NCBI GenBank assembly: GCA_000004985.1
Contig: GG738852.1
Origin: Naegleria gruberi
Taxonomy: Eukaryota
Reading direction: 5' to 3' (one strand)
DNA: 64,000 nt
Under the pieces are notes generated by a model that saw only the letters and a program-made list of their open reading frames with translations, did not search any database and was not told the origin of the DNA. Of the stretch, positions 1,511 to 60,490 are shown one piece after another (positions within the stretch are counted from its first letter, which is position 1; each line of letters begins with the position of its first letter). Made by a program: the position numbers and the translations under genes.

Positions 1511-2702
1511 ATGTTACAACTCATTCTCATTACCACCAACACTGGTGTTCCTAAATTCAAAAAATCACTAATAACTGATCTTGACCGAGATATTTTCCTC
1601 AGACTTTCCAATCTAATAGTAACACTCTATGTAAAATCTAAACGAGAAGTTGATCATAAATTATCATATTTTGAATTAAATAATCGAGGAGTGACAATAG
1701 AAGAAAATACACAAACAAAATTATTATGTATTCTAATGCACGATATTTCCGATGTATGTTATTTCTCTAAATTTACTAATTAAAATTATATTTGAAAATT
1801 TCCATTTTTATTGGAAACTCCTTGTATCACCAATATTGACATGAAAAATTAACAACATCATTCTCATCTTTATTGTCATCTTTATATGCAGGGCCATGAA
1901 TTTGCCAAGTTAGTAGCTGAGGAATTACTCGATCGTTTCATTTCCACATTCAAAACACCATCTCTCGTTTCTAAAAAAACTCTCTATTCGAATTCATTCA
2001 AAAACAATACCATCACAACACCATCAGGATTGCCTGGTGGTGGTAGTGGTTCTTCTGGAAATCAAGTGGCCGATAAGAAATCCTCACCACAACCACAAAA
2101 TCCACCCAATTTATTTGGTGGTGTGAATTCCATTGATTTGAATGATTTGGAAACAAGTGTTGATACCTCACATCGATTTGATCAAATGATGAATGTTGAA
2201 CAATTGTCGGTCGATGATTTGGAACAGGATGAGTTTGATTTTAATAATGTGAATGTGGATGAAAAGATTTTTGAGGCCAAGTTGGCTGAAATTTACTTGG
2301 AATTGGTTTATCCAATTATTGAACATTGTAAGTGAGAGTTGAGTTTTAATTTACAAAATATTTGAAAATGTTGAAATAGTGGATAGCGTGAGAGGAATTT
2401 TAAATTCATGGGTTATTGAGAGTGGCGATGAGGGAATTTTAACCACAACTAAACCTCAATTGGAAGCAGATTTAAAGTTTCTTGTGAATAATTGCGACAG
2501 ATTACTGAATGGTGAAATGCAAAATTTATCAATTAAGGGAAATGGAAAAAATCTTCATATTGTAATTGTTGAACACAAGTGTCATTTAGTTGTCTTGTTG
2601 GAATCTAATGTACAACCTGAAATTACAAGTTTTGCCATTGAGAAGGCAGTCTTTTTATTGAGGAAAGTTTATGCACTCAGGAAGAATATTAAAATTCAAT
2701 AA
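1511..2702 (+). CDS. Hypothetical protein, 3-exon model (possible longin/roadblock-like small domains); alternative start at ATG 1886
   Basis: The model is exon A 1511-1753 (ends ISD, GTATGT donor at 1754), exon B 1892-2327 (acceptor tatatgcag at 1883-1891; GTAAGT donor at 2328) and exon C 2380-2702 (acceptor gaaatag at 2373-2379). All junctions keep the frame (phases 0 and 1). The B-C junction is required because ORF 2379 begins with GTG, not ATG. Including exon A is less certain. Confidence 0.4.
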
Positions 2703-9319: not shown

Positions 9320-11495
9320 ATGGCAAATTCAAAGACCCACTCACCAGCCACCCTTGTGGTCTTGGTGATGAGTTGTTTCATGTTAATGACAATCGGAATG
9401 GTCCACTCTCTCAAACTCACTTCCTCTCTCGCCGATGATTTATTATCATCATCAAATTATATCGGGATGGAAAATAATCAAGAACATACCTCATTGAAGG
9501 TGATGAAGGCTCATTATGAGATGAAAGGCTGGAAGAGAATTCATCATCAAGATGATTTGATGAGATTATCTGGTAGTGAAAAGAAATCTATTGAAGAAAA
9601 GATTGAAAATCAAATGATTCATGTTACTTTTGCATTGAAGAATCAAAATGTTGAATTGTTGAGAAAGAAGGCAATTGCTGTCAGTACTCCAGGACATCCA
9701 GATCATGAAAATTATTTGACTATGGAACAAGTTGCTCAATATACAAAGCCATCTGCTGAAGATAGACAAAATGTCTTGCATTATATTAGTACTATTCCAG
9801 GAAGCATTGTTTTGAAGGTTTCAAAGCATGAAAACTTTATTGAATGTTTAATGCCAGTTTCCTCCATTAACAAGTATTTCAAGGCTGATATGAAGCCATA
9901 TATGCATCAAGAAAGTAAGACTGTCTTGTTGAGATCTTTGGAACAAGGTTATTCATTGCCAAAGGAAATTGCTGATTCAGTTACTTTGATTTCTGGCATT
10001 GTTCGTCTTCCAAGCATGGAAAATAGAGTCAAGATGACCAAGACAGCATCTGCTCAAGATGATGGATTGATTACTCCACAAGTTATTTGGAAGAGATATA
10101 ACATTACTGTTCCAACATTTGTTAGTTCAAACAGTTCTCAGTCTGTTGCTTCATTCTTGCAACAATATTATAGTGAAAGTGATTTGGCCTTGTTCCAATC
10201 TACTTATAACTTGGTTAGACAATCACCAATTGTTTATGGACCAAATGATGAATCCAATCCTGGTGTTGAAGCTTCTTTGGATATTCAATATCTTATGGGT
10301 GTTGGTTACAAGATTAGAACTACCTTTGTCTCAACTCCTGGTGTCAGTAATGTTACTGGACAAGAAAGATTCTTGTACTGGGTTACTCAACAACAACAAA
10401 TGGGTGATGCTTCTCCTTGGGTAAGTTCTTTTTAATTCACAATTTTTCATCTTAATACCTCATTTACAGGTTCATAGTGTTAGTTATGGAGACGATGAAT
10501 CTACTGTTACCAGAGCATTGGCTGATCAATTAGATATTGAATTTATGAAATTTGCTGCCACTGGACGTACAGTTATGGTATGTTGACAATTTCTTATTTA
10601 CCGATAATATTAACCAATCAATTCATAACAGATAGCATCAGGTGATAACGGAGCTCAATGTAATAATCAAGGAACCAAATTCTCTCCAACGTAAGTTTTT
10701 TACAAATTTTCCATGGTTTTACAATTTAAATAGTTGGCCAAATACATCTCCTTGGGTTACCTCTGTTGGTGCTACAAGACCATCAAGTGATTATTGGGAA
10801 AAGTCAGTTGACTGGAGTGGTAAGTTAACAATTTAATGACATGCTCATTCTTATAATATTCTTCATACTATCCCTTTTTAATTTAACAAATTAGGTGGTG
10901 GTTTTTCTTCTCTGTAAGTAATATATTGATTTAAATAATATAATATAACATATTTTAAAATAGTTACTCTCGTCCACAATATCAAAATGATGCTGTCGCC
11001 AAGTACTTGAAGACTAATAACATTCCTCCAGCCTCATTCTTCAATCCATCCGGTAGAGCTTATCCTGATGTCAGTGCTCTCGGTAAGTAGCTCAATATAT
11101 TTCCATCTCATTTCTTACATGTTATTTTTTAGGTGTTGAGTAAGTATATTCCAAAACAATTTATTTCTCATTTTCAAAATAGTTATCAAGTTTTCGTTGG
11201 TGGTTCCATTCAAAATGTTGCAGGTACTTCAGCAGCTTGTCCTTGTTTCGCTGGTGTTGTCAGTTTGCTTAATGATGCTCGTTTCAAAGCTGGTAAGAAA
11301 CCACTCGGATTCCTTAATATCTTCCTCTACACTCAAATTCCACAAAATCCAAAGGCCTTCTTTGATATCACTCAAGGTTATAATAGTGCTAGTCCTTGTC
11401 CTTATGGTTTCCCAGCTACTAGTGGATATGATGCCATTTCAGGTTGGGGTGTTCCTAATTTCCCAGTTTTGAGAGATCTTGCCTTGAAGAAATAA
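9320..11495 (+). CDS. Sedolisin / tripeptidyl-peptidase-like S53 serine peptidase, 8 exons including 19-nt and 7-nt micro-exons
   Basis: Exons are 9320-10420, 10470-10577, 10632-10690, 10734-10819, 10895-10913, 10964-11082, 11133-11139 and 11183-11495, with introns of 43-75 nt that all begin GTAAGT or GTATGT. The spliced product has a signal peptide, a pro-domain, then VHSVSYGDDE, SPWVTSVGAT, SGGGFSSLYSRPQYQ, RAYPDVSAL and GTSAACPCFAGVVSLLND (catalytic Ser), which are characteristic sedolisin blocks. Confidence 0.85.
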
Positions 11496-11676
11496 TTTGA
11501 CAGATCTATGAATGTTTAAGTTTCCAATAAACTATTGGAAAATGTTTTACTGTAAAATTTAGCATTTAAAGATTAAATCTCTCTTTAATCCAAGTACTCT
11601 CTAAAAAAGGAACCAGAATTATGAAAGAAACTGAAAGTGATGGGAAGAAACTAAAGACGAAACCAAACTAAAAAAA

Positions 11677-13785
11677 ATGTTCTCCTCCAACAAGGCTCTC
11701 GAAGGTGAAATCAGTGATTCACCCCGTAGACATTCTCTCAATATTACGAGTTCTCTGACGGTCAACCCTCCAAAGGCAGCACAATCACTCAATTCAGAGC
11801 AAATGAAAGAGATGAAAAAAGAGAAACGAATTCCTTCGATTCTTCCGAGTAAATTGATGAAATTCAAGACGAAATCATCCGATACATCATGTAGGTTCAC
11901 TATTTACCTCCCTTTCGAATAGTTCGAAAAATTTCGAATATATTTTATTTCGAATAACAGTTGATAAACAAGAATTGAAACAATTATTGGAACAATTTAC
12001 CGCAATCGATGCCAATCAAAAAAAGAATGGACAAATCAGTTTACATGAATTTCTCGTTTGTCTCGGAAGATTAAACGGAAATGAAGATTGCATACTTGAC
12101 AATTGTCAGGCAGATGTCGTTCTAGGAAAGATTTTATTCAGAGCTTTCGATAAAGATAACAGTGGTTCAATTGATTATCGTGAATTCTTAGCAACAATGG
12201 CAATTCTTTCAAAAGGAACAATTGAACAAAAATTGGAATTTGCATTTTCAATGATTGATTTGGATAATGATAAGAAATTGAGTAGAGAGGAATTGCAGAA
12301 AGTTATCGTAGCTCTCTATAAGGTTTTACAATCTTTGGGGTTGAATAGTATGCCAGATCCAATTGTTTATGCCAACAAATTGTTTGATGATATGGATGAG
12401 GATAAATGTGGATATTTGACTTTGGAGGCGTATAAGAAGGGGGCTACGAGGAATTCTAATGTTTTTCTTGGAATGGGATTGTTGGAAAATTCGGATAATG
12501 AAACTATAGGTAGGTTTGAGATTCAAATTTTTGAAATCAATGTGAAATAGAATTTGATGAAAATGGAATCAAGTTACTGAATGAAACTGATTTGAAAAAT
12601 AGAAGTAGCAATGATCCTTCCAAGGCACCTGGTAAAATTATTGGATTTGGAAGTAAAAAGTGGAATTTATGTTTAAATATGATGATTGGCATTCGTCTCT
12701 CCTCTGATTGCATTGGTTCAATTGATCAGAGAGATGTTAGAATGGAAGATTTCAGTGTGAGACTCATGTTTAATTTACCAAAAGATTCCAATAGAAATAT
12801 GACTAATCCAGAGCTATCTGAAATTGATGAGGAGGAAGATGTTGGAGCTACATTTATTGATTATGCACCTTTCGTATTCAAACACATTAGAAAAATGACT
12901 GGAATCAGTGAGGATAGTTACATGATGAGTTTGGGACCTGAACAATTATTGGGAGGTCTCTTATTGGGAAGTTTGTCAACTCTTTCGTGTTCCATATCAG
13001 ATGGTAAATCAGGTTCATTCTTCTTTTATAGTAGTGATCGTAAATTTATGGTCAAGACAATTTCAAAGTCTGAAGTGGCATGTTTGAAAAGAATCTTACC
13101 ATTCTATTACAATCACATGATTTCGAATCCAGATTCTTTAATTGTCAGAATTTTGGGTTTCCATGAAATGGTAATTGACAATGAAAAGTTTAACTTTATT
13201 GTAATGGGAAGTATTTTCCCACAATCAAGATCGATTGACGAACTCTATGATTTGAAAGGATCAACTCATGGAAGAAAGAATCCAAATGGATTTTGTAAGA
13301 AGGATCTCGACTTGATTGAGAAGGAAAGAAAATTCAAAATTGGAAATGAAAACAAACTATTGTACATGAAAATCATTGAGAAGGATGTTGAATTTCTCTC
13401 AAAATGTAATTTATTGGACTATTCACTATTGGTTGGAGTTTGCAATGCTTCGAGAAATATCAAACAAGATCAAGAAGTTGGAATTAATGTAAACTTGGTC
13501 GAAAGTTCTCCAAGAAAGAATAGTGGAAGTCTTGCTGGTTCCAGATTTTCCAGAAGAAACAAGTGTGTCTGTGGAATTCCAAGTATTGATATTGCAAGAG
13601 AATTGCAAGACGATGGAGAAGTGTACTATATTGGAATAATCGATATCTTGACAGAATATAATAGAAAGAAGGAAGCTGAACACACTTTGAAGAGTATCAC
13701 AAACAAATCGGATACTATTAGTGCCATTCCTGCAAAGCCGTATTCTGAAAGATTTTTCAAATTCATGCATCAATGTTTCGAATAA
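11677..13785 (+). CDS. Phosphatidylinositol-4-phosphate 5-kinase (PIPK catalytic domain) with an N-terminal NCS/calcineurin-B-like 4-EF-hand module; 3-exon fusion model
   Basis: Exon 1 is 11677-11890 (ATG at 11677, Ser-rich leader, GTAGGT donor at 11891). Exon 2 is 11961-12509, with EF-hand loops DKDNSGSIDYRE, DLDNDKKLSREE and DMDEDKCGYLTLE and a GTAGGT donor at 12510. Exon 3 is 12551-13785, whose AG acceptor coincides with the TAG that ends the EF-hand ORF. The exon 2-3 intron is 41 nt, both junctions are phase 1 and keep the frame. The PIPK hallmarks are DFxV, GKSGSFFFYSSDRKFMVKTISKSE and a conserved C-terminal block. The PIPK frame has no ATG before its conserved N-terminal strand (KIIGFGSKKWNLCLNMMIGIR), so it needs an upstream exon. 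Confidence 0.6.
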
Positions 13786-13822: not shown

Positions 13823-15376
13823 TTAATCTTGATTAATTCTAGTTCTGTGTGGTATTGTAATTCTGTAACCTTTTTGTAACTCCCCTATTTCTTTACCTGT
13901 TCCTCCAGTTACCATTGCATCATCGTCAAAGAAGAAAAAGCTAGTCTTGGAAAGTGCCTTGTACTTTTGGTTTTCAGGTTCCTTAATCGATTTGGCATCA
14001 AATACCATATCATAAATGTGTAAAAAGTCATAATCCTCCCTTCCTGTATCACTAACCCAAAAGTTTTCAATCTCTGTCGATCTTTCCAAGCTGTACTTTT
14101 TAGCAAATCCTCCAATAATTGATAAATGTGAAATAGTAATACCAAAAATATCTAATTGAGCTCTAGATTTAAATTCAATAGCTTCGTTATTTACAATAAA
14201 CTCAACCTCTTCCTTGGAAACTTGAAGTGAGGTAGCAACTTCTTCAATCCAGTTTGGATTATTCACAAACACATCAGCTGTTTCCTTAATAATTGACTTG
14301 ACTGCCTTGGAATAAAAGTATTTCAGTCTATATTGGCCTCGCTTCAACTCTTCAAAATATCCATACTTATTAGAAATGACACTATCTAAATTCAATCTCG
14401 ACAATACAGCCGAAACAAAATGTTGACTATTACAATTGGATTCGTCATAGTAATGTTTGCCGTTATATTTACAGCAAACTCTAGCAATATTAATAAGAGC
14501 CATTGAGACTTTCTTAGTTCCTTCAATCTTGGAGATGGGAACCAATTTTAATTTTCTTCTATTTGTATGTGTTCTGATATTACTGACAACATGCCTAGAT
14601 GAAGACCAAAAGAGGACGGCAGTACCCACTTGAAGAGCTAGAGGTAAAATGCCTTCTCTTTCCTCTCCCATGGTATTGAAATCTTCCAAAAAGATGAGTC
14701 CAATATTTAAACTGCTCATAGCAGCGGATTCTTTTGTAAGCTCATTCATTGATAGGAATACATCCAATACGAATCTGTCTGGAAGAATCAAGTTTTGTAT
14801 TTCTGCATTCGTCAAGTGTTCATTTCCTGTAAAATTACGTTTAGTTTGTTTAAACAGGGTAACATTCTCACGTTCCTCACTCGTAAGCACATCATCATCC
14901 CAGACACTTTCCAGAACTTCTATCGATTTCTCCAAGTTGATTCCATGAATGGCATATGATTGTTGAGTTGGTGATAAATCCTTTCCAGCATTACGCAAGT
15001 TAGAAAATGACGATGATGGATAGAGTAAATGATGGTTTTGACTGGTCATGTTAGGTAGAGAATTTACAGCAACAATTGGTTGTGCACTTGTTTCAATATT
15101 TGGTGGCAAATCCAAGTTTCGTTGAATTACATCAGGTGATGAGATGGATGCTTTTGTACTACTCGCAGTAATGGAACTATTGATGAAATTTTGTGTGGTT
15201 GATGTAGATCCTCCCTTCTTACATTTCTCAATGTATTTTAATAAATCATCCATGGTTGGCTCGTCGAAATGTTCCAAACCTTCCTGACGAGCCTCCATTC
15301 TATTCGAAACCATCTCAGACCTACTCACTGCAGATTCCGAATAACAAGGAAAAGGCTGACCCATTTTCTCTTTCAA
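13823..15376 (-). CDS. Hypothetical protein (517 aa)
   Basis: Continuous minus-strand ORF with ATG at 15376 (alternative start at MGQPF). It is convergent with the PIP5K gene, with only 37 bp between the stop codons. No recognisable domain. Confidence 0.65.
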   Translation of the reverse strand: MKEKMGQPFPCYSESAVSRSEMVSNRMEARQEGLEHFDEPTMDDLLKYIEKCKKGGSTSTTQNFINSSITASSTKASISSPDVIQRNLDLPPNIETSAQPIVAVNSLPNMTSQNHHLLYPSSSFSNLRNAGKDLSPTQQSYAIHGINLEKSIEVLESVWDDDVLTSEERENVTLFKQTKRNFTGNEHLTNAEIQNLILPDRFVLDVFLSMNELTKESAAMSSLNIGLIFLEDFNTMGEEREGILPLALQVGTAVLFWSSSRHVVSNIRTHTNRRKLKLVPISKIEGTKKVSMALINIARVCCKYNGKHYYDESNCNSQHFVSAVLSRLNLDSVISNKYGYFEELKRGQYRLKYFYSKAVKSIIKETADVFVNNPNWIEEVATSLQVSKEEVEFIVNNEAIEFKSRAQLDIFGITISHLSIIGGFAKKYSLERSTEIENFWVSDTGREDYDFLHIYDMVFDAKSIKEPENQKYKALSKTSFFFFDDDAMVTGGTGKEIGELQKGYRITIPHRTRINQD

Positions 15377-27302: not shown

Positions 27303-30300
27303 ATGTTTTGTAATCTGTTCAATTCCAAAACTGAAAAAAACAATGCAACAAGATCACATCACATCAACTCCACTCTAAATGACGACTATCTGTTCGAGTT
27401 GGATGATGACGATTCCACTCAGGACAATGGTGAATCAGCCACTTTAAATTCAATGCAACATTATAAACAATTCGACATTCATCCTCTCCTCTTACATAAT
27501 ATCATTCATCAAATTTTGGAATATTCCGATAATCCAACCAACATCCTACTTGTTAATAGAAGTTGGTACATTTATTTCCATCATGTTTATGTTTTGCAAA
27601 AAACAGCAAATCAGTCATTAATCTTGGATCGGATTGCAAAATCAATATACAACAAGGATGTACAAAAGTTTACAAATTATCTTCATACCATGGTACAGTG
27701 CCACGATTATTTAATGAAGGGAATTGTTCATTTGCAAATTCAATCAGAACCAACACCACCATTGGAAAATAATAATACAATTTTAGAAGAAGATCAAGTA
27801 ATTATGTGTTTATCCAATTCATCAGTTATTACTTGGAAAATTGGTAAATTTAAAATAGGAAAAGAGTTTAAAATTTCCTCACAGAAAAAGAAACAATCAG
27901 AAGGACAAAAATCAAAATCGAATACTTCTGTTTCATTCTCAGAGTTAGGTGAACAAGCAGAAGCTTCACTTTTCACTAGTATACCATCCTTGTCTAATTA
28001 TAATAATGTCATTGTAAGTAAGGTGAAAGCTGGTGAGAAGAGATTCATTGTTGTTGGAGGATCTGATTGTACCATTAGAGTTTTGGATTATGAAACAGGT
28101 GAAGTTAAGGCAAGTTTCTCAAAAGCCAATCGTCAACCTATTCTGGCCTTGAATTTGTTTGGTGATAAGATTTTGAGTGCAAGTGATGGAGTCTATGTAA
28201 TTCAATATCAAGATGTGAAGGAAGAACAAGAAAACGACAATGATGAGGAGGAAAATGCTCTCGAAAATGAATTTGAAGAGGAAAAGAAAAAAACAAAACC
28301 AAAAGTGAAACTCAGTAAGGAAGAGGAAAGAAAAAGGGAAAAGGAATTGAAAAAGCAATATCAGAAAAAGAAAAAGCCAAAAGATAAGAGCAGCAAATCT
28401 GCCTCAGTGACGAAACCAACTCTAACTCTTGTGAAAAATTTCAGGCACAACAATGCTGGTCTGGTAACATCTGTCAATATTCACAAGGGTGGAAAATCAT
28501 CCCTTTTGCTGATTACATCCCATAGTGAAAATAGTGTACGTTTGTGGGATTATGAAAATGAGAATGTGCTATTGGTTATTAGAGGAGACTACTGCTCTCC
28601 AGTATTTTCCTCATTTCTCTCATTTAAGGGATATGGAAAATCGAAAACATTTGATATTTGCTCAATCAATGACAATTTTGAGAATGTTTATGTGTGGAAT
28701 CCAAAAACTCATGATCCTTATCCAACTATTCAATTCCAGAGTAATACTGTCTCAACAGTTGAGGATATTCTATTCAGAAAAAGATCTTCCCACTCTAATT
28801 CATCAAATATTTTAATTCCAGACAGAGATTCAAAGAGTAATCACTTCTTTTTAATGTCCATCTTCCAATTTAATTATTCCATACCATTCCAAATTGAAAA
28901 TAATAACATATCTAGTTTGGGAAGAAGAAGTTCTGAAATTGGACTTTATGAACAATATGTTACTTTAGAACCTATTCACAAAAAGGAAATTCCACCATTA
29001 GCTGAATTGAAGAAAAACATAATGAATAGCCCAAGCAGCTATCTATTAGATGAAGTTTCATTGTAAGTTTTTTTGCATTTACATTTTCTTAAATATGGTG
29101 ATGAACTAGTTTATTGGAGAAGATTGGTTGGACCTCTTCGAAGGAAATTATTTCAGACCTTAAGGATAAAATTGATAAAGCCCAAGAAGAACCTCATGTA
29201 GTCTGCAAAATATTCGAACTCATCTTGTGGTATGCATGTAGAGTTGGAAATTCTCATTTGACATTGGTGTTCTCTGAGATAATACACTCAGTACTGTCAC
29301 AAATGAAACCTGGCAAAGGAAAAGATCAATCCTTTGAAATACTCCATACCTATGACGAAATCATTGACCGAGAGGATACCAAAACAAAGTATTTGCAACA
29401 GAAAAAGCTATCCTACACTTATCTAATGTGCACTCTTATGCGTCTTAACATGCATTACTTTTGGGATACTTTCAACAAAACATCTAAAAATTTTATTTCC
29501 AACTTGTCAGAGCAAGATCCAACTGCTCTCACTCGTTTGTTCCTTTACCTAAAGTTTTCTTCTGAAGGAATAATGGTAATTACCGATATATTAACAATGG
29601 TTGATAAGATGAAAGAATTCCTCCACAATTTAAGGGGAAATGTTTCCATTTATCACTCTTACATGGTAGATGATTTAATCTCCGTTTTGGATCGTCAACA
29701 GAAAACTAAAGCGATAGTCCCTTCTATTGATAGAGATTTCTTCAAAACTCTCCATCATATGGTTGTAACATTTCGTTCCAACTTTACCAAGAAGTTCATT
29801 ATGGATAATATTTACAACTCGAAGGAGCAAAACATCTTGGTGGAGAAGGATGTAGTTCCTTATTTATTTGGAGTTGGAAAGAAGAATATCATGAAAATTC
29901 AACAACAAAGTGGTGCAACAATTTACATTTCAGGAAGGGATAAAGACAAACATTTCGAACCAAGAAAGAAAGAAGATTCAATCCACAATAATAAGAATGA
30001 TAAGAAGAAAGGTGACCATAAGAATAACAATAAGAGTGAGAAACCAAAATATCCAAAAGAAAAGAAAAAGGTACAATATGATTTCTCTAAATTCTCCAAT
30101 GTAAATATTAAGGGTGATATCAAACAGGTTGATTTGGCCATTGCTCTTATAGATATGGTTATTAACAACTTTTTTGATAAGAACAAGTTGAATAGAAGAA
30201 ATCCACCAATTACCAAACTTGTTATCGACCATGATACTATAGATGTAGCGAATCAGTACTTTCAATTTGTACCATATTCTCGTCTTCCTCTGAGCATCAA

Positions 30301-48139: not shown

Positions 48140-48736
48140 ATGTCATTCCTTGTTTATGAAGCTCCATCACACGATCCTCACCCAACACAATCACAAACCA
48201 ACAACAGTACAAGTTCCGATCTAGCAGTGGTGAAGAATTTATTTCTTGCTGGTGGAATTTCCGGATGTGGAAATTGGCATTTGGATATGATTGAATCACT
48301 CAAGAAGAAGTGTTTGAAGAATGATCATGTTCGGGAGAAGTGTTGTGTTAAATTGTACAATCCAAGAAGAGAGAATTTTGATGTGAGTGATAAGAGCCAA
48401 TCAGATGTTCAAATTAGATGGGAACATTCCTATTTACATACTGTGGAAGCTGTATCATTTTGGTTTTGTAGTGAAACTCTTTGCCCAATTACTGTAAGTT
48501 TTGTGAATAATATTGAGTTTAAAAAACTAAAACATCTTGTGAAATAGTTATATGAGCTAGGTAAAATTTCCATGATGCCAAGTGTTAAATTATTTGTTGG
48601 AGTTCATCCAGATTATTTGAGAAGAATGGATGTTGAAACTCAAACCCTTCTTGTAAGACCAGAGGTTACTATTGTCTATTCAGTTGAAGACTTAGCTCAA
48701 CAAGTATTTGATGAATATTTTGCAGTACAAGATTAA
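48140..48736 (+). CDS. Small protein with nucleoside 2-deoxyribosyltransferase-like motifs (tentative), 2 exons
   Basis: Exon 1 is 48140-48493 (ATG at 48140; FLAGGISGCGNW...VEAVSFWFCSETLCPIT, GTAAGT donor). The intron is 54 nt. Exon 2 is 48548-48736 (LYELGKISMMPSVKLFVGV...), phase 0. The GG...W and SFWF..E..ELG pattern resembles the NDT/Rcl fold. Low certainty. Confidence 0.4.
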
Positions 48737-57940: not shown

Positions 57941-58162
57941 ATGTTTTCAAGACTTTTTAATACCATCTTCCCAAGGTCGAGAGTTACCGGAAGACGTCCA
58001 TTCCTTGCTGCTTCACTCCTTTTTGGTGCCTACATGGCTGCTACATTACCAGTTAATCGTACTGGTGGAGAAGCTACTGGTGCTGATATTGCACAATCTA
58101 CACTTGTTTCCGATCAACTTGCTGATGATTCTACTAACGAACAATTCTCTAAGAATAATTAA
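57941..58162 (+). CDS. Small protein (73 aa) with presequence-like N-terminus plus one hydrophobic helix; possible small mitochondrial membrane protein
   Basis: aaaaaaaATG at 57941. The N-terminus MFSRLFNTIFPRSRVTGRRPFLAASLLFGAYMAATLP is basic and amphipathic, followed by a TM segment. Confidence 0.4.
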   Translation: MFSRLFNTIFPRSRVTGRRPFLAASLLFGAYMAATLPVNRTGGEATGADIAQSTLVSDQLADDSTNEQFSKNN

Positions 58163-58351
58163 TAATTAGAATTAATTTTGCCATCATTTTACTATCAATT
58201 ATCAATCAATATATTGTGCAAATTAATTTTCGGAATTTATGAAGAATTAATAGCAACAATTTACTTTTTGGAAATAACTCTATCCTTCTTCCCTATCCTT
58301 CTCCCTACCTCCCAATCATCAATGACAATAAAAAACAAATAATTTATAAAT

Positions 58352-60490
58352 TTAATATTCTCTATTGAGGAAAGCATCAAGAGATAATTGTCTTGGATCA
58401 TTGTTTGGACCCTTGACAGGTTTTACAGATTTCACATAAATAACTTCATCATCATCATCATCTGACATGTCATCAGCAGCAGTTGTGGAATCAGTCTTAG
58501 TCTTTTTTGAAGACTTGCTACTGTCACTTTCTTCAGATTTACGTTTCTTTGGAGATTTGGCATCTTCACTAGTGGAGCTCTTCTTTTTAGGAGAAACCAT
58601 AGTTTCTGATGTTTTTCTTTTAGGGTTAGCAGGAGCTTCTGGATAAACACAATCTAATCCCTTCTTTGTGCATGTAAGACATGATGGAATATGTCTGCTA
58701 CACTTCTTGTGAGATTTTTTGCAACAGAGGCAAGAAAAATATGACAATTGTTCTTCAGAATTCTCAGTTTCTGATGATGAACTAGATGCTGTAGATTTCT
58801 TATCTTTCTTAGATTTGCTACGTTTTTCAGAAGCTTTTTCTTTTTTACCTGCAGATTTCTTATCTTTCTTAGATTTGCTACGTTTTTCTACTTTTTCTAC
58901 TTTTTCAACCTCACAAACAGATGTATCAAGTCCTCCAACCTCAAAATCCATCTCGTTTGGTATTGAGGAAGGAGTGGTAGAAGTTGGCGTAATTAAGGAG
59001 ATGGTTTCAATAGCCTTATCAGCTGAATTGCTATCGGGATTTTTGGTAACATCCAAAGTAAGTTGTCCTTTTTCATGTTTTTCATTCTTTTTGGTTTTCT
59101 TTTCAGCTTTCTTTTCATTCTTAGTGTCAGATTTTTGCTCGGATTTCTTTTCAGTCTTGTCTTCAATCTTATCCTCCACCTTCTTTTCAGACTTATTTTC
59201 AGTCTTGTCATCTACATTCTTATTATCTTCATCATTCTTCTTATTTTTTCTATTTTTCTTCGTTTTTTTGTTTTCTGTTGTTGGCTTTTCACTCATTTCA
59301 ACATCTTTTGTCTGTTCGAAAGGCTTTTCTTGTGGGCTTTTCACTGATTCTTGAGAGCTTATTTGAGAATTATCCTTTGAATTTTCCTTGTTCTTCTCTT
59401 TTTTCGACTTTTTGTCCTGTGTCGCCTTATTGTTTTGAGATGATTCCTTTTGCTCCTTTTGTACCTCTGTTGTTTTTGGTTGCTCTTTAGTTTGTTTTTC
59501 TGTGATTTTTGGTTGCTCTGGCTTCTCTTGAGAGCTACTTTGTAATGTTCCATTTGTTGGTTGAGTAACATGTTGATTTTCTATAGCCTTTTTTGATTTT
59601 TCATCCTTCTTTTGAAGATATCTTGGTTTATCCTTAGGCTGTTCCTTTGGTTGGATTTTTGGCTTTTCTTGTGAGCTTGCCACTGATTCTTGAGAGCTAT
59701 TTGGCAAAATTGCGATTGGACTTTCTTGTTGTTTCTGTGAGGTTCCATTTGGTTGGGCTAGAGGTTTCTCTTGTGTAACTTGTTGGATAGTTGGTTTAAT
59801 TGACTCGATTATATTAGATTTGGCTATTATTGGGGATTCCTTAGACAGCACGATAGCAGCTGGTTCAGGTTGTGAAATAGTTTCAGGCTTATTCTCGACG
59901 GAAGCAACAACTGGATTAAATTTTGCTTTGAAACTATTTTCTTTTTTGTCTTTCATTCTACCCTTCAGTCGGGAAACTAATTTGTTGAAGGTTTTGACTT
60001 GGCTTGGTGGTGTAGATGATGTTGTAATAATACTAGCATATGCATTTGTAGAGTTCGTAGCATTTGTATTTGAACAAGTTGTAGTGTTTGATGATTCATT
60101 AGAAGCTTGTTTAGGTGTTTGTTTTTTTGGTTTCTTCTTCACTTCCTCGGAATCTGATTCACTCTCATCGCAATACATTGACTCCCAATCTTCTTCTTCA
60201 TCTTCCGAATCATGATTTATACTAAAATCCTCATCCTCTTCCTCTCTATATTCTGTTGGCCTTGAAATAATGTCATCTTCATCACTTGATTCATCCACAA
60301 AAAAATCATCATTTAATACATCGTCATCCTCCTCGTCCTCCATTAAATTTAAAATGCTCGGATCCAATAAATCATCACCATCATCCTCCTCGTAAACTAC
60401 TACTGTCTTGGTCTTCCTTGGGGATTCAGCCTTTCCTTTGTCTTTACTGATTGTTTTACCGGAGAGTGTTTTCTGGACGGTCTTTGGCAT
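58352..60490 (-). CDS. Highly charged low-complexity protein (712 aa) with a Zn2Cys6 binuclear-cluster-like motif near the C-terminus
   Basis: ATG at 60490. The N-terminus is acidic D/E-rich, the centre is K/E/S/Q-rich, and C-L-C-C-x6-C-x6-C-x2-C-x6-C appears as CLCCKKSHKKCSRHIPSCLTCTKKGLDC. The C-terminus is a basic/acidic tail. Confidence 0.65.
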   Translation of the reverse strand: MPKTVQKTLSGKTISKDKGKAESPRKTKTVVVYEEDDGDDLLDPSILNLMEDEEDDDVLNDDFFVDESSDEDDIISRPTEYREEEDEDFSINHDSEDEEEDWESMYCDESESDSEEVKKKPKKQTPKQASNESSNTTTCSNTNATNSTNAYASIITTSSTPPSQVKTFNKLVSRLKGRMKDKKENSFKAKFNPVVASVENKPETISQPEPAAIVLSKESPIIAKSNIIESIKPTIQQVTQEKPLAQPNGTSQKQQESPIAILPNSSQESVASSQEKPKIQPKEQPKDKPRYLQKKDEKSKKAIENQHVTQPTNGTLQSSSQEKPEQPKITEKQTKEQPKTTEVQKEQKESSQNNKATQDKKSKKEKNKENSKDNSQISSQESVKSPQEKPFEQTKDVEMSEKPTTENKKTKKNRKNKKNDEDNKNVDDKTENKSEKKVEDKIEDKTEKKSEQKSDTKNEKKAEKKTKKNEKHEKGQLTLDVTKNPDSNSADKAIETISLITPTSTTPSSIPNEMDFEVGGLDTSVCEVEKVEKVEKRSKSKKDKKSAGKKEKASEKRSKSKKDKKSTASSSSSETENSEEQLSYFSCLCCKKSHKKCSRHIPSCLTCTKKGLDCVYPEAPANPKRKTSETMVSPKKKSSTSEDAKSPKKRKSEESDSSKSSKKTKTDSTTAADDMSDDDDDEVIYVKSVKPVKGPNNDPRQLSLDAFLNREY

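What the first reader, a model, noticed from the sequence alone, without database searches (positions are those of the whole stretch)
11677..13785. EF-hand Ca2+-sensor module apparently fused to a PIP5K catalytic domain through a 41-nt intron
Two adjacent ORFs encode a neuronal-calcium-sensor/calcineurin-B-like 4-EF-hand protein (11677-12550, itself spliced at 11890/11961) and a PIP5K catalytic domain (12592-13785). The PIP5K frame has no ATG before its conserved N-terminal strand KIIGFGSKKWNLCLNMMIGIR, and the frame is open back to 12535. A GTAGGT donor at 12510 and the AG of the EF-hand ORF's own TAG stop (12548-12550) define a 41-nt intron that joins the two ORFs in frame with matching phase 1. 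Other introns in this window are 41-56 nt, so the size is normal here. If spliced this way, the protein would couple a Ca2+-binding regulatory module directly to PI(4,5)P2 synthesis. I do not recognise this architecture; NCS proteins are known to regulate PI4K in trans.
Basis: partly seen in the sequence, partly recalled or inferred. Interest (0 to 1): 0.75.

Follow-up and report, generated by a model that had tools for sequence, protein, structure and literature searches.

The report
Naegleria calcium-sensor–PIP5K fusion gene
This is one three-exon gene of the amoeba Naegleria gruberi that joins a calcium-sensor-like EF-hand module to a lipid kinase that makes PI(4,5)P2; the public annotation splits it into two fragments, and the design is already known from malaria parasites and ciliates.

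Summary
Removing the 41-nt GTAGGT…TGAAATAG intron (12510-12550) joins the EF-hand ORF to the PIP5K ORF. The result is one 665-aa protein encoded at 11677-13785 in three exons.

The fusion is supported by orthologues, not only by frame arithmetic:
- A 66%-identical metagenomic orthologue encodes both modules in one uninterrupted ORF.
- Willaertia magna has EF3/EF4, the linker and the kinase in a single exon.
- Naegleria lovaniensis has a phase-1 intron splitting a G|AA codon three codons away in the same linker.

Short introns of 41-54 nt with the same TGAA[A/C]TAG 3' end recur in the window.

The window is Naegleria gruberi. Its public annotation splits the locus into two partial fragments of 145 and 261 aa. 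The first fragment reads through the intron.

The architecture is not new. PfPIP5K/NCS of Plasmodium and the Tetrahymena and Paramecium PIPK1 proteins have it. The literature calls it alveolate- or apicomplexan-specific. I also found it in Heterolobosea, Blastocystis, a haptophyte and a dinoflagellate.

Verdict: the gene-model correction is right, and this is a new member of a known kind. The wider taxonomic range has modest evolutionary interest. Ca2+ regulation of the kinase remains inferred.

The parts
11677..11890 (+). Exon 1: start codon and a Ser/Lys-rich N-terminal extension (residues 1-71 plus 1 nt). There is no Gly2, so no N-myristoylation signal.
   Evidence: First ATG after the in-frame stop at 11638. 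IPSILPSKLM is conserved with N. lovaniensis IPSLLPSKLL. N-terminus is MFSSNK.
11891..11960 (+). Intron 1: 70 nt, GTAGGT...AACAG, phase 1, inside the Phe codon of SFDK(Q/E)ELK.
   Evidence: An intron at the same position and phase is present in N. lovaniensis and Willaertia magna.
11961..12509 (+). Exon 2: NCS-like EF-hand module (residues 72-254).
   Evidence: Pfam EF-hand_7, _6, _1, _5 and _8. Best solved relatives are hippocalcin, neurocalcin and NCS-1/frequenin at E about 1e-20.
12149..12184 (+). EF2 Ca2+-binding loop DKDNSGSIDYRE (residues 135-146), canonical.
   Evidence: Matches the PROSITE-style EF-loop pattern in the window and in all Naegleria and Willaertia orthologues.
12257..12292 (+). 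EF3 Ca2+-binding loop DLDNDKKLSREE (residues 171-182), canonical apart from Lys at position 6.
12510..12550 (+). Intron 2: 41 nt, GTAGGT...TGTGAAATAG, phase 1 (G|AA). If retained, the frame ends at the TAG at 12548-12550.
   Evidence: The public N. gruberi fragment P0058 reads through it (...NETIGRFEIQIFEINVK). Orthologues have no counterpart of that tail.
12551..13785 (+). Exon 3: conserved linker (ENGIKLLNETDLKN), the N-terminal kinase strand GKIIGFGSKKWNLCLNMMIGIR, the PIPK catalytic domain and the TAA stop.
12976..13773 (+). Pfam PIP5K domain match (residues 397-662). It includes the G-loop DGKSGSFF, the catalytic Lys in MVKTIS, DLKGS, LDYSLLVG and GIIDIL.
   Evidence: E = 7.9e-78. Motif positions. 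PDB relatives are PIP4K2A/B and PIP5K1A.
13633..13722 (+). Activation loop (residues 616-645). In KKEAEH, a Glu sits at the position where type II PIP4K2-beta has Ala.
   Evidence: Residue-by-residue alignment to 3x05_A. Reading this as type I specificity rests on published activation-loop swap work, recalled from memory.

Best explanation
Window 11677-13785 (+) is a single three-exon gene of Naegleria gruberi. It encodes a 665-aa protein made of a short basic N-terminal extension, an NCS-like four-EF-hand module, a roughly 40-residue linker, and a type-I-like PIP5K catalytic domain. Two of the EF-hand loops, EF2 and EF3, are canonical Ca2+ loops. The 41-nt intron at 12510-12550 is spliced out. 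The public annotation, which gives two partial proteins, is a mis-annotation.

The protein belongs to the EF-hand-PIPK subfamily first described as PfPIP5K/NCS.

Likely mechanism (inferred, not shown): Ca2+ binding to EF2/EF3 changes the conformation of the sensor module. The module is attached in cis to the kinase and probably docked on it. The change alters PI4P 5-kinase activity or membrane engagement. PI(4,5)P2 synthesis then follows cytosolic Ca2+, for example to replenish the PLC substrate pool during Ca2+ signalling, motility or phagocytosis.
For: **Shown**
- Exact frames and phases; the spliced CDS is open.
- Both domains are present.
- A single BLASTP alignment to N. lovaniensis P0001 covers 92% of the fused protein at 66% identity. 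The alignment to P0002 covers 89%.
- P0002 is an uninterrupted 610-codon ORF on contig L003.
- Willaertia exon 3 spans from EF3 to the stop codon.
- N. lovaniensis has a 64-nt phase-1 G|AA intron in the linker, three codons from the window's intron. Intron 1 is at an identical position and phase in all three species.
- F287, G288 and W292 are invariant or nearly invariant. They lie upstream of the first in-frame Met of the PIP5K frame, so a stand-alone PIP5K would lose conserved structure.
- Other ORF-joining introns in the window measure 41-54 nt and share the TGAA[A/C]TAG end.
- The EF module is NCS-like.
- The kinase has all catalytic motifs and the type I Glu in the activation loop.
- In a neighbour-joining (NJ) tree of kinase domains, all 50 EF-bearing PIPKs fall on one side of a split with 97% bootstrap support.

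**Suggestive**
- The AlphaFold2 model of orthologue P0002 has pLDDT 81.6 and pTM 0.84 despite a disordered linker. This hints at a fixed arrangement of the two domains.

**Literature**
- PfPIP5K/NCS is a type I PIP5K with NCS-like EF-hands (PMC10543664).
- A Ca2+ ionophore raises PtdInsP2 in Tetrahymena, which has EFh-PIPKs (PMC3823935).
Against: - There is no transcript evidence for the splice in N. gruberi itself. A search for the spliced 29-mer junction in metagenome contigs found nothing, which is uninformative.
- The public N. gruberi record annotates two separate partial proteins.
- 41 nt is at the short end of intron sizes in this window.
- According to the papers read, Ca2+ regulation has not been shown directly for any member of this family.
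- EF1 and EF4 are degenerate, and there is no myristoyl switch.
- The pTM value is a single number.
Confidence: 0.9

Rival explanations
1. These are two independent genes, as in the public N. gruberi annotation: a stand-alone NCS-like EF-hand protein ending at the TAG at 12548-12550, and a separate PIP5K transcribed from its own start.
For: GenBank holds two separate partial predicted proteins from this locus: P0058 (145 aa, ending ...GRFEIQIFEINVK) and P0060 (261 aa).
Against: - Both models are flagged partial and cover little more than the domain cores. P0060 starts at SDGKSG and ends one residue before the stop.
- The PIP5K frame has no ATG before MMIGIR. Starting there would delete nearly invariant residues F287, G288 and W292.
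- The gap between the EF-hand stop and the conserved coding sequence ENGIKLL is only about 8 nt, which leaves no room for a promoter.
- The tail GRFEIQIFEINVK has no counterpart in any orthologue.
- Three orthologues are fused, and one has no intron at all at the junction.
Confidence: 0.04
2. It is one gene with regulated retention of intron 2. Splicing gives the EF-hand-PIP5K protein. Retention gives a 267-aa free NCS-like protein terminated by the TAG that also forms the acceptor.
For: - The acceptor AG is part of an in-frame TAG, so a retained transcript would encode an intact EF-hand protein.
- Very short introns are often retained at some level (general knowledge).
- Read-through of the N. 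lovaniensis linker intron also ends in a stop, about 31 codons beyond the donor.
Against: - In-frame stops are expected by chance in AT-rich introns.
- The two read-through tails, GRFEIQIFEINVK and GMCVVFEQMV..., are unrelated.
- The relatives without this intron (L003, Willaertia) cannot make such an isoform.
- There are no expression data.
Confidence: 0.08
3. The gene is fused, but the EF-hand module is a Ca2+-independent structural or scaffolding domain (for example a dimerisation or Arf-binding platform), so the kinase is not Ca2+-regulated.
For: - Only 2 of 4 loops are canonical here.
- In Acrasis kona and Stentor no loop matches the canonical pattern, yet the module is retained. This suggests it has a role beyond Ca2+ binding.
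- The papers read say Ca2+ regulation of PfPIP5K/NCS 'has not been directly tested' (PMC3823935).
Against: - The EF2 and EF3 loops keep all liganding positions in the window, N. lovaniensis, the metagenomic relative and Willaertia. That conservation argues for selection on Ca2+ binding.
- The Tetrahymena ionophore data link Ca2+ to PtdInsP2 levels (PMC3823935).
Confidence: 0.2

Closest known systems
PfPIP5K/NCS of Plasmodium falciparum (PF3D7_0110600) and its apicomplexan orthologues such as TgPI4P5KA
   Same: - An N-terminal NCS-like EF-hand module and a C-terminal type I PIP5K domain in one polypeptide (PMC10543664, PMC3942320).
- Apicomplexan PIPK kinase domains fall in the same 97%-supported group as the window protein in the NJ tree.
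   Different: - The apicomplexan proteins retrieved here are much longer than 665 aa. The Cyclospora, Eimeria and Theileria proteins are 848-1121 aa.
- Their EF modules are only weakly similar to the Naegleria module: 20-27 bits, against 77 bits to metazoan hippocalcin.
- The Naegleria protein is compact and has a short linker.
- Arf1 activation is shown only for the Plasmodium enzyme.
Ciliate PIPK1 group (Tetrahymena TtPIPK1a-d and Paramecium PIPKs with EFh motifs)
   Same: EF-hand motifs lie N-terminal to a type I-like PIPK domain. PMC3823935 describes them as relatives of PfPIP5K/NCS. They sit in the same clade.
   Different: - Paramecium and Stentor proteins have a roughly 150-200-residue predicted coiled-coil or low-complexity insert between the EF module and the kinase, and MLCCG N-termini.
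- The window protein has a roughly 40-residue linker and no lipidation motif.
Naegleria lovaniensis C9374_013612 (P0001) and Willaertia magna ABK040_016069 (P0003)
   Same: These are direct orthologues at 66% and 49% identity, with the same domain order and the same intron 1 position and phase. N. lovaniensis also has a linker intron.
   Different: - They are annotated only as hypothetical proteins.
- Their N-terminal extensions are longer.
- N. lovaniensis has six introns against two here.
- Willaertia has no linker intron.
NCS-1/frequenin activating PI4-kinase III-beta (Frq1-Pik1) in trans
   Same: An NCS-type Ca2+ sensor controls a phosphoinositide kinase. The EF module's best solved relatives are NCS proteins.
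   Different: - That system uses two separate proteins, a different kinase family (PI4K, not PIPK) and a myristoylated sensor.
- Here the sensor is covalently fused, lacks Gly2 and lacks the CPxG motif of EF1.
- The comparison rests on the reference cited in PMC10543664 (Zhao et al. 2001) and on general knowledge.

Membership tests
EF-hand-PIPK fusion subfamily (PfPIP5K/NCS type) | C-terminal PIPK catalytic domain | tested here: met
   Pfam PF01504, E = 7.9e-78, residues 397-662. PDB relatives are PIP4K2B and PIP5K1A at 1e-35 to 1e-31. All catalytic motifs are present.
EF-hand-PIPK fusion subfamily (PfPIP5K/NCS type) | N-terminal EF-hand module of NCS type | tested here: met
   Pfam EF-hand_7 at 2.9e-16. 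The top solved relatives are hippocalcin, neurocalcin and NCS-1 at about 1e-20.
EF-hand-PIPK fusion subfamily (PfPIP5K/NCS type) | Both modules in one polypeptide | tested here: met
   Met computationally. The in-frame phase-1 splice gives an open 665-codon CDS. Orthologues are fused, one with an uninterrupted ORF and one with the junction in a single exon. Transcript-level proof in N. gruberi could not be obtained with these tools.
EF-hand-PIPK fusion subfamily (PfPIP5K/NCS type) | Kinase domain groups with the other EF-bearing PIPKs rather than with other type I PIPKs | tested here: met
   NJ tree of 127 kinase domains with 100 bootstraps. All 50 EF-bearing sequences lie in a 71-member group separated from 56 fungal and other sequences at 97% support. 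Caveats: the sample was drawn by similarity to the query and contains no named metazoan, plant or amoebozoan PIPKs, and NJ was the only method used.
EF-hand-PIPK fusion subfamily (PfPIP5K/NCS type) | PI4P 5-kinase (type I) activity, stimulated by Arf1 | not testable with these tools
   Only the sequence proxy is available. The activation loop KKEAEH has Glu where PIP4K2B has Ala.
Neuronal calcium sensor (NCS) family proper | N-terminal myristoylation consensus (Met-Gly...) | tested here: not met
   The N-terminus is MFSSNK, and the EF module starts after a 71-residue extension.
Neuronal calcium sensor (NCS) family proper | Stand-alone protein of about 190-200 aa with four EF-hands, an inactive EF1 carrying CPxG, and active EF2/EF3 | tested here: not met
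   The module is fused rather than stand-alone. EF1 is non-canonical (DANQKKNGQISLHE, with a 2-residue insertion) but has no CPxG. EF2 and EF3 are canonical. EF4 lacks Glu12. It is NCS-like in sequence but not a member of the family in the strict sense.
Type I PIP5K (PI4P 5-kinase) | Glu at the specificity position of the activation loop, and conserved N-terminal strands shared with PIP5K1A | tested here: met
   The alignment to PIP5K1A (5e3s, 4tz7) covers query residues 44-406, including the N-terminal region. The alignments to type II kinases start at residue 100. The activation-loop Glu is present.

The most novel reading that the evidence does not exclude
The EF-hand-PIPK fusion is not an alveolate invention. 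It is an ancient eukaryotic Ca2+-to-PI(4,5)P2 coupling module that arose once, before Discoba (Heterolobosea) diverged from the SAR and Haptista lineages, and so possibly close to the last eukaryotic common ancestor (LECA). It was then lost in animals, fungi and plants. Free-living Naegleria would be a tractable, non-parasitic system for testing how Ca2+ controls PIP2 synthesis in cis.
Probability: 0.35. Interest if true: 0.5.

Novelty: new member of a known kind. Interest (0 to 1): 0.3.

Why it matters
**Annotation.** The finding corrects the gene model of a reference protist genome. Two partial "predicted proteins" of N. gruberi are one 665-aa enzyme.

[quoted passage not shown] A 2013 kinome study calls the group alveolate-specific. 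Full-length, intron-validated members in Heterolobosea show the module is much more widespread. So do hits in Blastocystis, Prymnesium and a dinoflagellate.

**Drug targeting.** The wider range weakens arguments that treat this architecture as a parasite-specific drug-target feature.

**Experimental use.** The compact Naegleria enzyme has a roughly 40-residue linker, compared with the apicomplexan homologues of 848-1121 aa retrieved here. It may be a better substrate for biochemistry and structure work on the still-untested idea that Ca2+ directly gates PI(4,5)P2 synthesis.

Tried and rejected
1. **AlphaFold2 of the spliced window protein.** I modelled orthologue P0002 instead. Only summary scores are returned, so the interdomain contacts could not be inspected.
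2. **Exact look-up of three candidate products.** I tried the fused protein, the EF-only protein with the retained intron, and a PIP5K starting at MMIGIR. None is in the 15-billion-protein collection.
3. **Locus look-up for P0058.** It returned no record, so the public N. gruberi gene table around the locus could not be read.
4. **Spliced-junction search.** The 29-mer was not found in metagenome contigs. This is uninformative.
5. **Single-origin test from EF-module similarity.** It was inconclusive. The Naegleria EF module scores higher against metazoan hippocalcin (77 bits) than against ciliate or apicomplexan EF modules (20-27 bits).
6. **DNA alignment of the junction across four species.** The sequences are too diverged in the linker to show a clean 41-nt gap. 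The protein-level comparison was used instead.
7. **Pfam on neighbouring ORFs.** ORFs 13823-15376(-), 11133-11495(+) and 10642-10836(+) gave no hits. My recollection that GTSAACP resembles a sedolisin or subtilase active site remains unconfirmed.
8. **Sequencing error or frameshift at 12500-12560.** Rejected. The intron has a consensus donor identical to that of intron 1, and the 3' motif it shares with other introns in the window.
9. **In-frame GT..AG joining as evidence on its own.** Rejected, because 23 such combinations exist.
Full report
**1. The observation**

The region was read directly and its ORFs were listed. The window is AT-rich, at about 34% GC.

An ORF starts at the ATG at 11677. 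The nearest upstream in-frame stop is at 11638.

Intron 1:
- A GTAGGT donor begins at 11891 and an AG acceptor ends at 11960.

Intron 2:
- The EF-hand frame runs on to a TAG at 12548-12550.
- A second GTAGGT lies at 12510.
- Removing 12510-12550 (41 nt) leaves G|AA, a Glu codon, and continues in the frame of the PIP5K ORF.
- That frame is open from 12535 and has no in-frame ATG before the Met-Met of LNMMIGIR.

The spliced CDS is 1998 nt, has no internal stop, and encodes 665 aa. Pfam finds PIP5K (E = 7.9e-78, residues 397-662) and several EF-hand models (EF-hand_7 at 2.9e-16) in that one protein.

**2. Is the splice more than chance?**

On its own, no. Enumerating GT..AG pairs around the junction gives 23 combinations that join the two frames without a stop. 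Three other lines of evidence single out 12510/12550.

(a) Conserved coding sequence on both sides.
- This is the only pair that keeps both conserved flanks: GMGLLENSDNETI upstream and ENGIKLLNETDLKN downstream.
- Both flanks align with orthologues.

(b) The intron fits the local pattern. I scanned the window mechanically for strong-donor GT..AG pairs that join two open frames of at least 60 codons where read-through stops quickly.
- The scan recovers introns of 41, 43, 45, 47, 52 and 54 nt.
- Four short introns end in TGAA[A/C]TAG: 2328-2379, 12510-12550, 29063-29109 and 48494-48547.
- TGAAATAG occurs 7 times on the + strand against about 2.3 expected.
- The donor hexamer GTAGGT is the same as in intron 1 of this gene.

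(c) Orthologues, described next.

**3. Orthologues show the fusion**

A homology search with the fused protein returned the following.
- Naegleria lovaniensis P0001: 770 aa, 66% identity, and a single alignment covering 92% of the query.
- A metagenomic protein, P0002: 610 aa, 66% identity.
- Willaertia magna P0003: 907 aa, 49% identity.
- Dozens of further proteins that carry both EF-hand and PF01504 domains.

Their loci were fetched and the exons were mapped exactly.
- **P0002:** on contig L003 it is an uninterrupted ORF (890-2722) running through the EF-hands, the linker and the kinase.
- **Willaertia:** everything from EF3 to the stop codon lies in one exon (L002 4026-5914).
- **N. lovaniensis:** there is a 64-nt phase-1 intron splitting a G|AA Glu codon in the linker, three codons from the window's intron.
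- **Intron 1:** all three spliced genes (the window, N. lovaniensis and Willaertia) have it at the identical position and phase, inside the Phe codon of SFDK(E/Q)ELK.

Retaining the window's intron would add the tail GRFEIQIFEINVK, which has no counterpart in any orthologue. With the intron removed, the window reads ...ETIE|FDENGIKLL, against ...ETIQDQQIEGNLTIL in the intronless relative.

Residues F287, G288 and W292 are invariant or nearly invariant across ten diverse family members. They lie upstream of the first Met available to a stand-alone PIP5K.

**4. Source organism and state of annotation**

Searches with each half separately found two GenBank entries labelled 'predicted protein, partial [Naegleria gruberi]'. 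Both are 100% identical to the window and come from the same 938,756-nt contig.
- P0058 is 145 aa. It runs from DVVLGKIL to NETIGRFEIQIFEINVK, which means it reads through the 41-nt intron.
- P0060 is 261 aa and runs from SDGKSGSFFF to MHQCF.

The window is therefore N. gruberi, and the public annotation splits this gene into two domain-core fragments.

The exact fused sequence is not in the 15-billion-protein collection.

**5. What the protein is**

EF-hand module:
- Its best solved relatives are the neuronal calcium sensor proteins hippocalcin, neurocalcin-delta and frequenin/NCS-1, at E about 1e-20. KChIPs (about 1e-17 to 1e-15), then calcineurin B and recoverin (about 1e-12), follow.
- EF2 (DKDNSGSIDYRE) and EF3 (DLDNDKKLSREE) are canonical loops. 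They are conserved in the window, N. lovaniensis, P0002 and Willaertia.
- EF1 has a two-residue insertion, and EF4 has Ala at loop position 12.
- There is no Gly2 and no CPxG motif, so there can be no Ca2+-myristoyl switch.

Kinase module:
- It has the G-loop, the catalytic Lys, DLKGS, DYSLLVG and IIDIL.
- In the activation loop, KKEAEH aligns with KKKAAH of PIP4K2-beta. This puts Glu at the position that distinguishes type I from type II enzymes. That interpretation comes from published activation-loop swap experiments, recalled from memory.
- Only the type I PIP5K1A structures align with the N-terminal strands (query residues 44-406).

Structure prediction:
- The AlphaFold2 model of orthologue P0002 has mean pLDDT 81.6 and pTM 0.84. 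The linker is disordered at residues 188-215.
- A pTM that high for a two-domain protein hints at a defined docking of the sensor on the kinase. I could not inspect the contacts.
- Foldseek against the PDB matches only the kinase half, with TM-score normalised to query length of at most 0.44. No two-domain structure has been solved.

**6. Comparison with what is known**

The architecture is not new.
- PMC10543664 describes P. falciparum PF3D7_0110600 as a bifunctional protein. It has a C-terminal type I PI4P5K domain and an N-terminal NCS-type EF-hand domain, and Arf1 stimulates it (Leber et al. 2009). The review states that the association 'is unique to Apicomplexa'.
- PMC3942320 makes the same point for the P. 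berghei orthologue.
- PMC3823935 reports EFh-bearing PIPKs in Tetrahymena and Paramecium and calls the group alveolate-specific. It notes that Ca2+ control 'has not been directly tested'. It also reports that a Ca2+ ionophore raises PtdInsP2 in Tetrahymena.
- I found no paper mentioning this architecture in Naegleria.

My searches show the same two-domain proteins in a wider range of organisms:
- Heterolobosea: N. gruberi, N. lovaniensis, Willaertia, and Acrasis with degenerate loops;
- Blastocystis;
- the haptophyte Prymnesium;
- the dinoflagellate Effrenium;
- Stentor.

A neighbour-joining tree of 127 kinase domains puts all 50 EF-bearing proteins in one group of 71. That group is separated from 56 fungal and other EF-less PIPKs with 97% bootstrap support.

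The sample is biased, because it was drawn by similarity to the query. Resolution inside the group is poor.

The EF modules themselves do not settle whether the fusion arose once. The Naegleria module is closer to metazoan hippocalcin (77 bits) than to ciliate or apicomplexan modules (20-27 bits).

**7. Mechanism**

Shown:
- one gene;
- two domains;
- intact catalytic and Ca2+-liganding residues;
- conservation across Heterolobosea.

Inferred:
- Ca2+ binding at EF2/EF3 changes the sensor module.
- That change alters kinase activity or membrane engagement.
- PI(4,5)P2 synthesis is thereby coupled to Ca2+ signals.

I give the gene-model claim about 0.9. I give the Ca2+-regulation mechanism roughly 0.5-0.6.

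Rivals:
- two independent genes (about 0.04);
- an additional intron-retention isoform giving a free sensor (about 0.08, and not exclusive of the main explanation);
- a Ca2+-independent scaffold role for the EF module (about 0.2).

**8. Verdict**

Its claim of an unrecognised architecture is wrong.

This is a new member of a known kind. It has a modest evolutionary twist, because the family is wider than the 'alveolate-specific' label in the literature.

Interest is about 0.3.

Noticed in passing
window 2328-2379, 12510-12550, 29063-29109, 48494-48547 (+): Four short ORF-joining introns (41-54 nt) end in TGAA[A/C]TAG. Two of them share the last 10 nt, TGTGAAATAG. TGAAATAG occurs 7 times on the + strand against about 2.3 expected. 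This may be a combined branch-point and acceptor motif of very short Naegleria introns.
   Followed up: partly
window 13823-15376 (-): A 517-aa ORF converges on the PIP5K gene. The two stop codons are only 37 nt apart (13785 and 13823), so the 3' UTRs must overlap or be extremely short. The ORF has no Pfam match at E <= 0.01.
   Followed up: partly
window 10642-11495 (+): Upstream ORF fragments in different frames (10642-10836, 11133-11495) look like exons of one gene. The motif GTSAACP recalls a serine-peptidase (sedolisin or subtilase) active site, but Pfam found nothing for these fragments. The resemblance comes from memory only.
   Followed up: partly
public N. gruberi proteins P0058 and P0060 (window 12113-12550 and about 12991-13779): The GenBank N. 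gruberi annotation holds only domain-core 'partial' models for this locus. One of them translates an intron. Other multi-domain genes in this genome with very short introns may be fragmented in the same way.
   Followed up: partly
L001 8939-14243 (-), N. lovaniensis contig PYSW02000069.1: In N. lovaniensis the gene next to the EF-PIPK orthologue encodes a 1595-aa PAS and guanylate/adenylate cyclase protein. The window has a different neighbour (the 517-aa ORF), so local synteny does not appear to be kept.
   Followed up: no
window 58001-60000; tandem repeats at 59145-59221 and 1006-1080: There is a strong AT skew (-0.32) at 58-60 kb. Two 36-nt, roughly 2-copy tandem repeats were found. One of them lies inside a T-rich stretch that also produced several alternative in-frame GT..AG candidates from the donor at 59058.
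   Followed up: no
P0016, P0081 (ciliates) and P0002 (L003 890-): Ciliate EF-PIPKs start with MLCCG, and the metagenomic Naegleria-like ORF starts with MCC. These are possible N-terminal palmitoylation sites. The window protein (MFSSNK) and N. lovaniensis (MFQSPSE) have none. The MCC start of P0002 may simply be a mis-called start, given that the Naegleria genes have an upstream exon.
   Followed up: no
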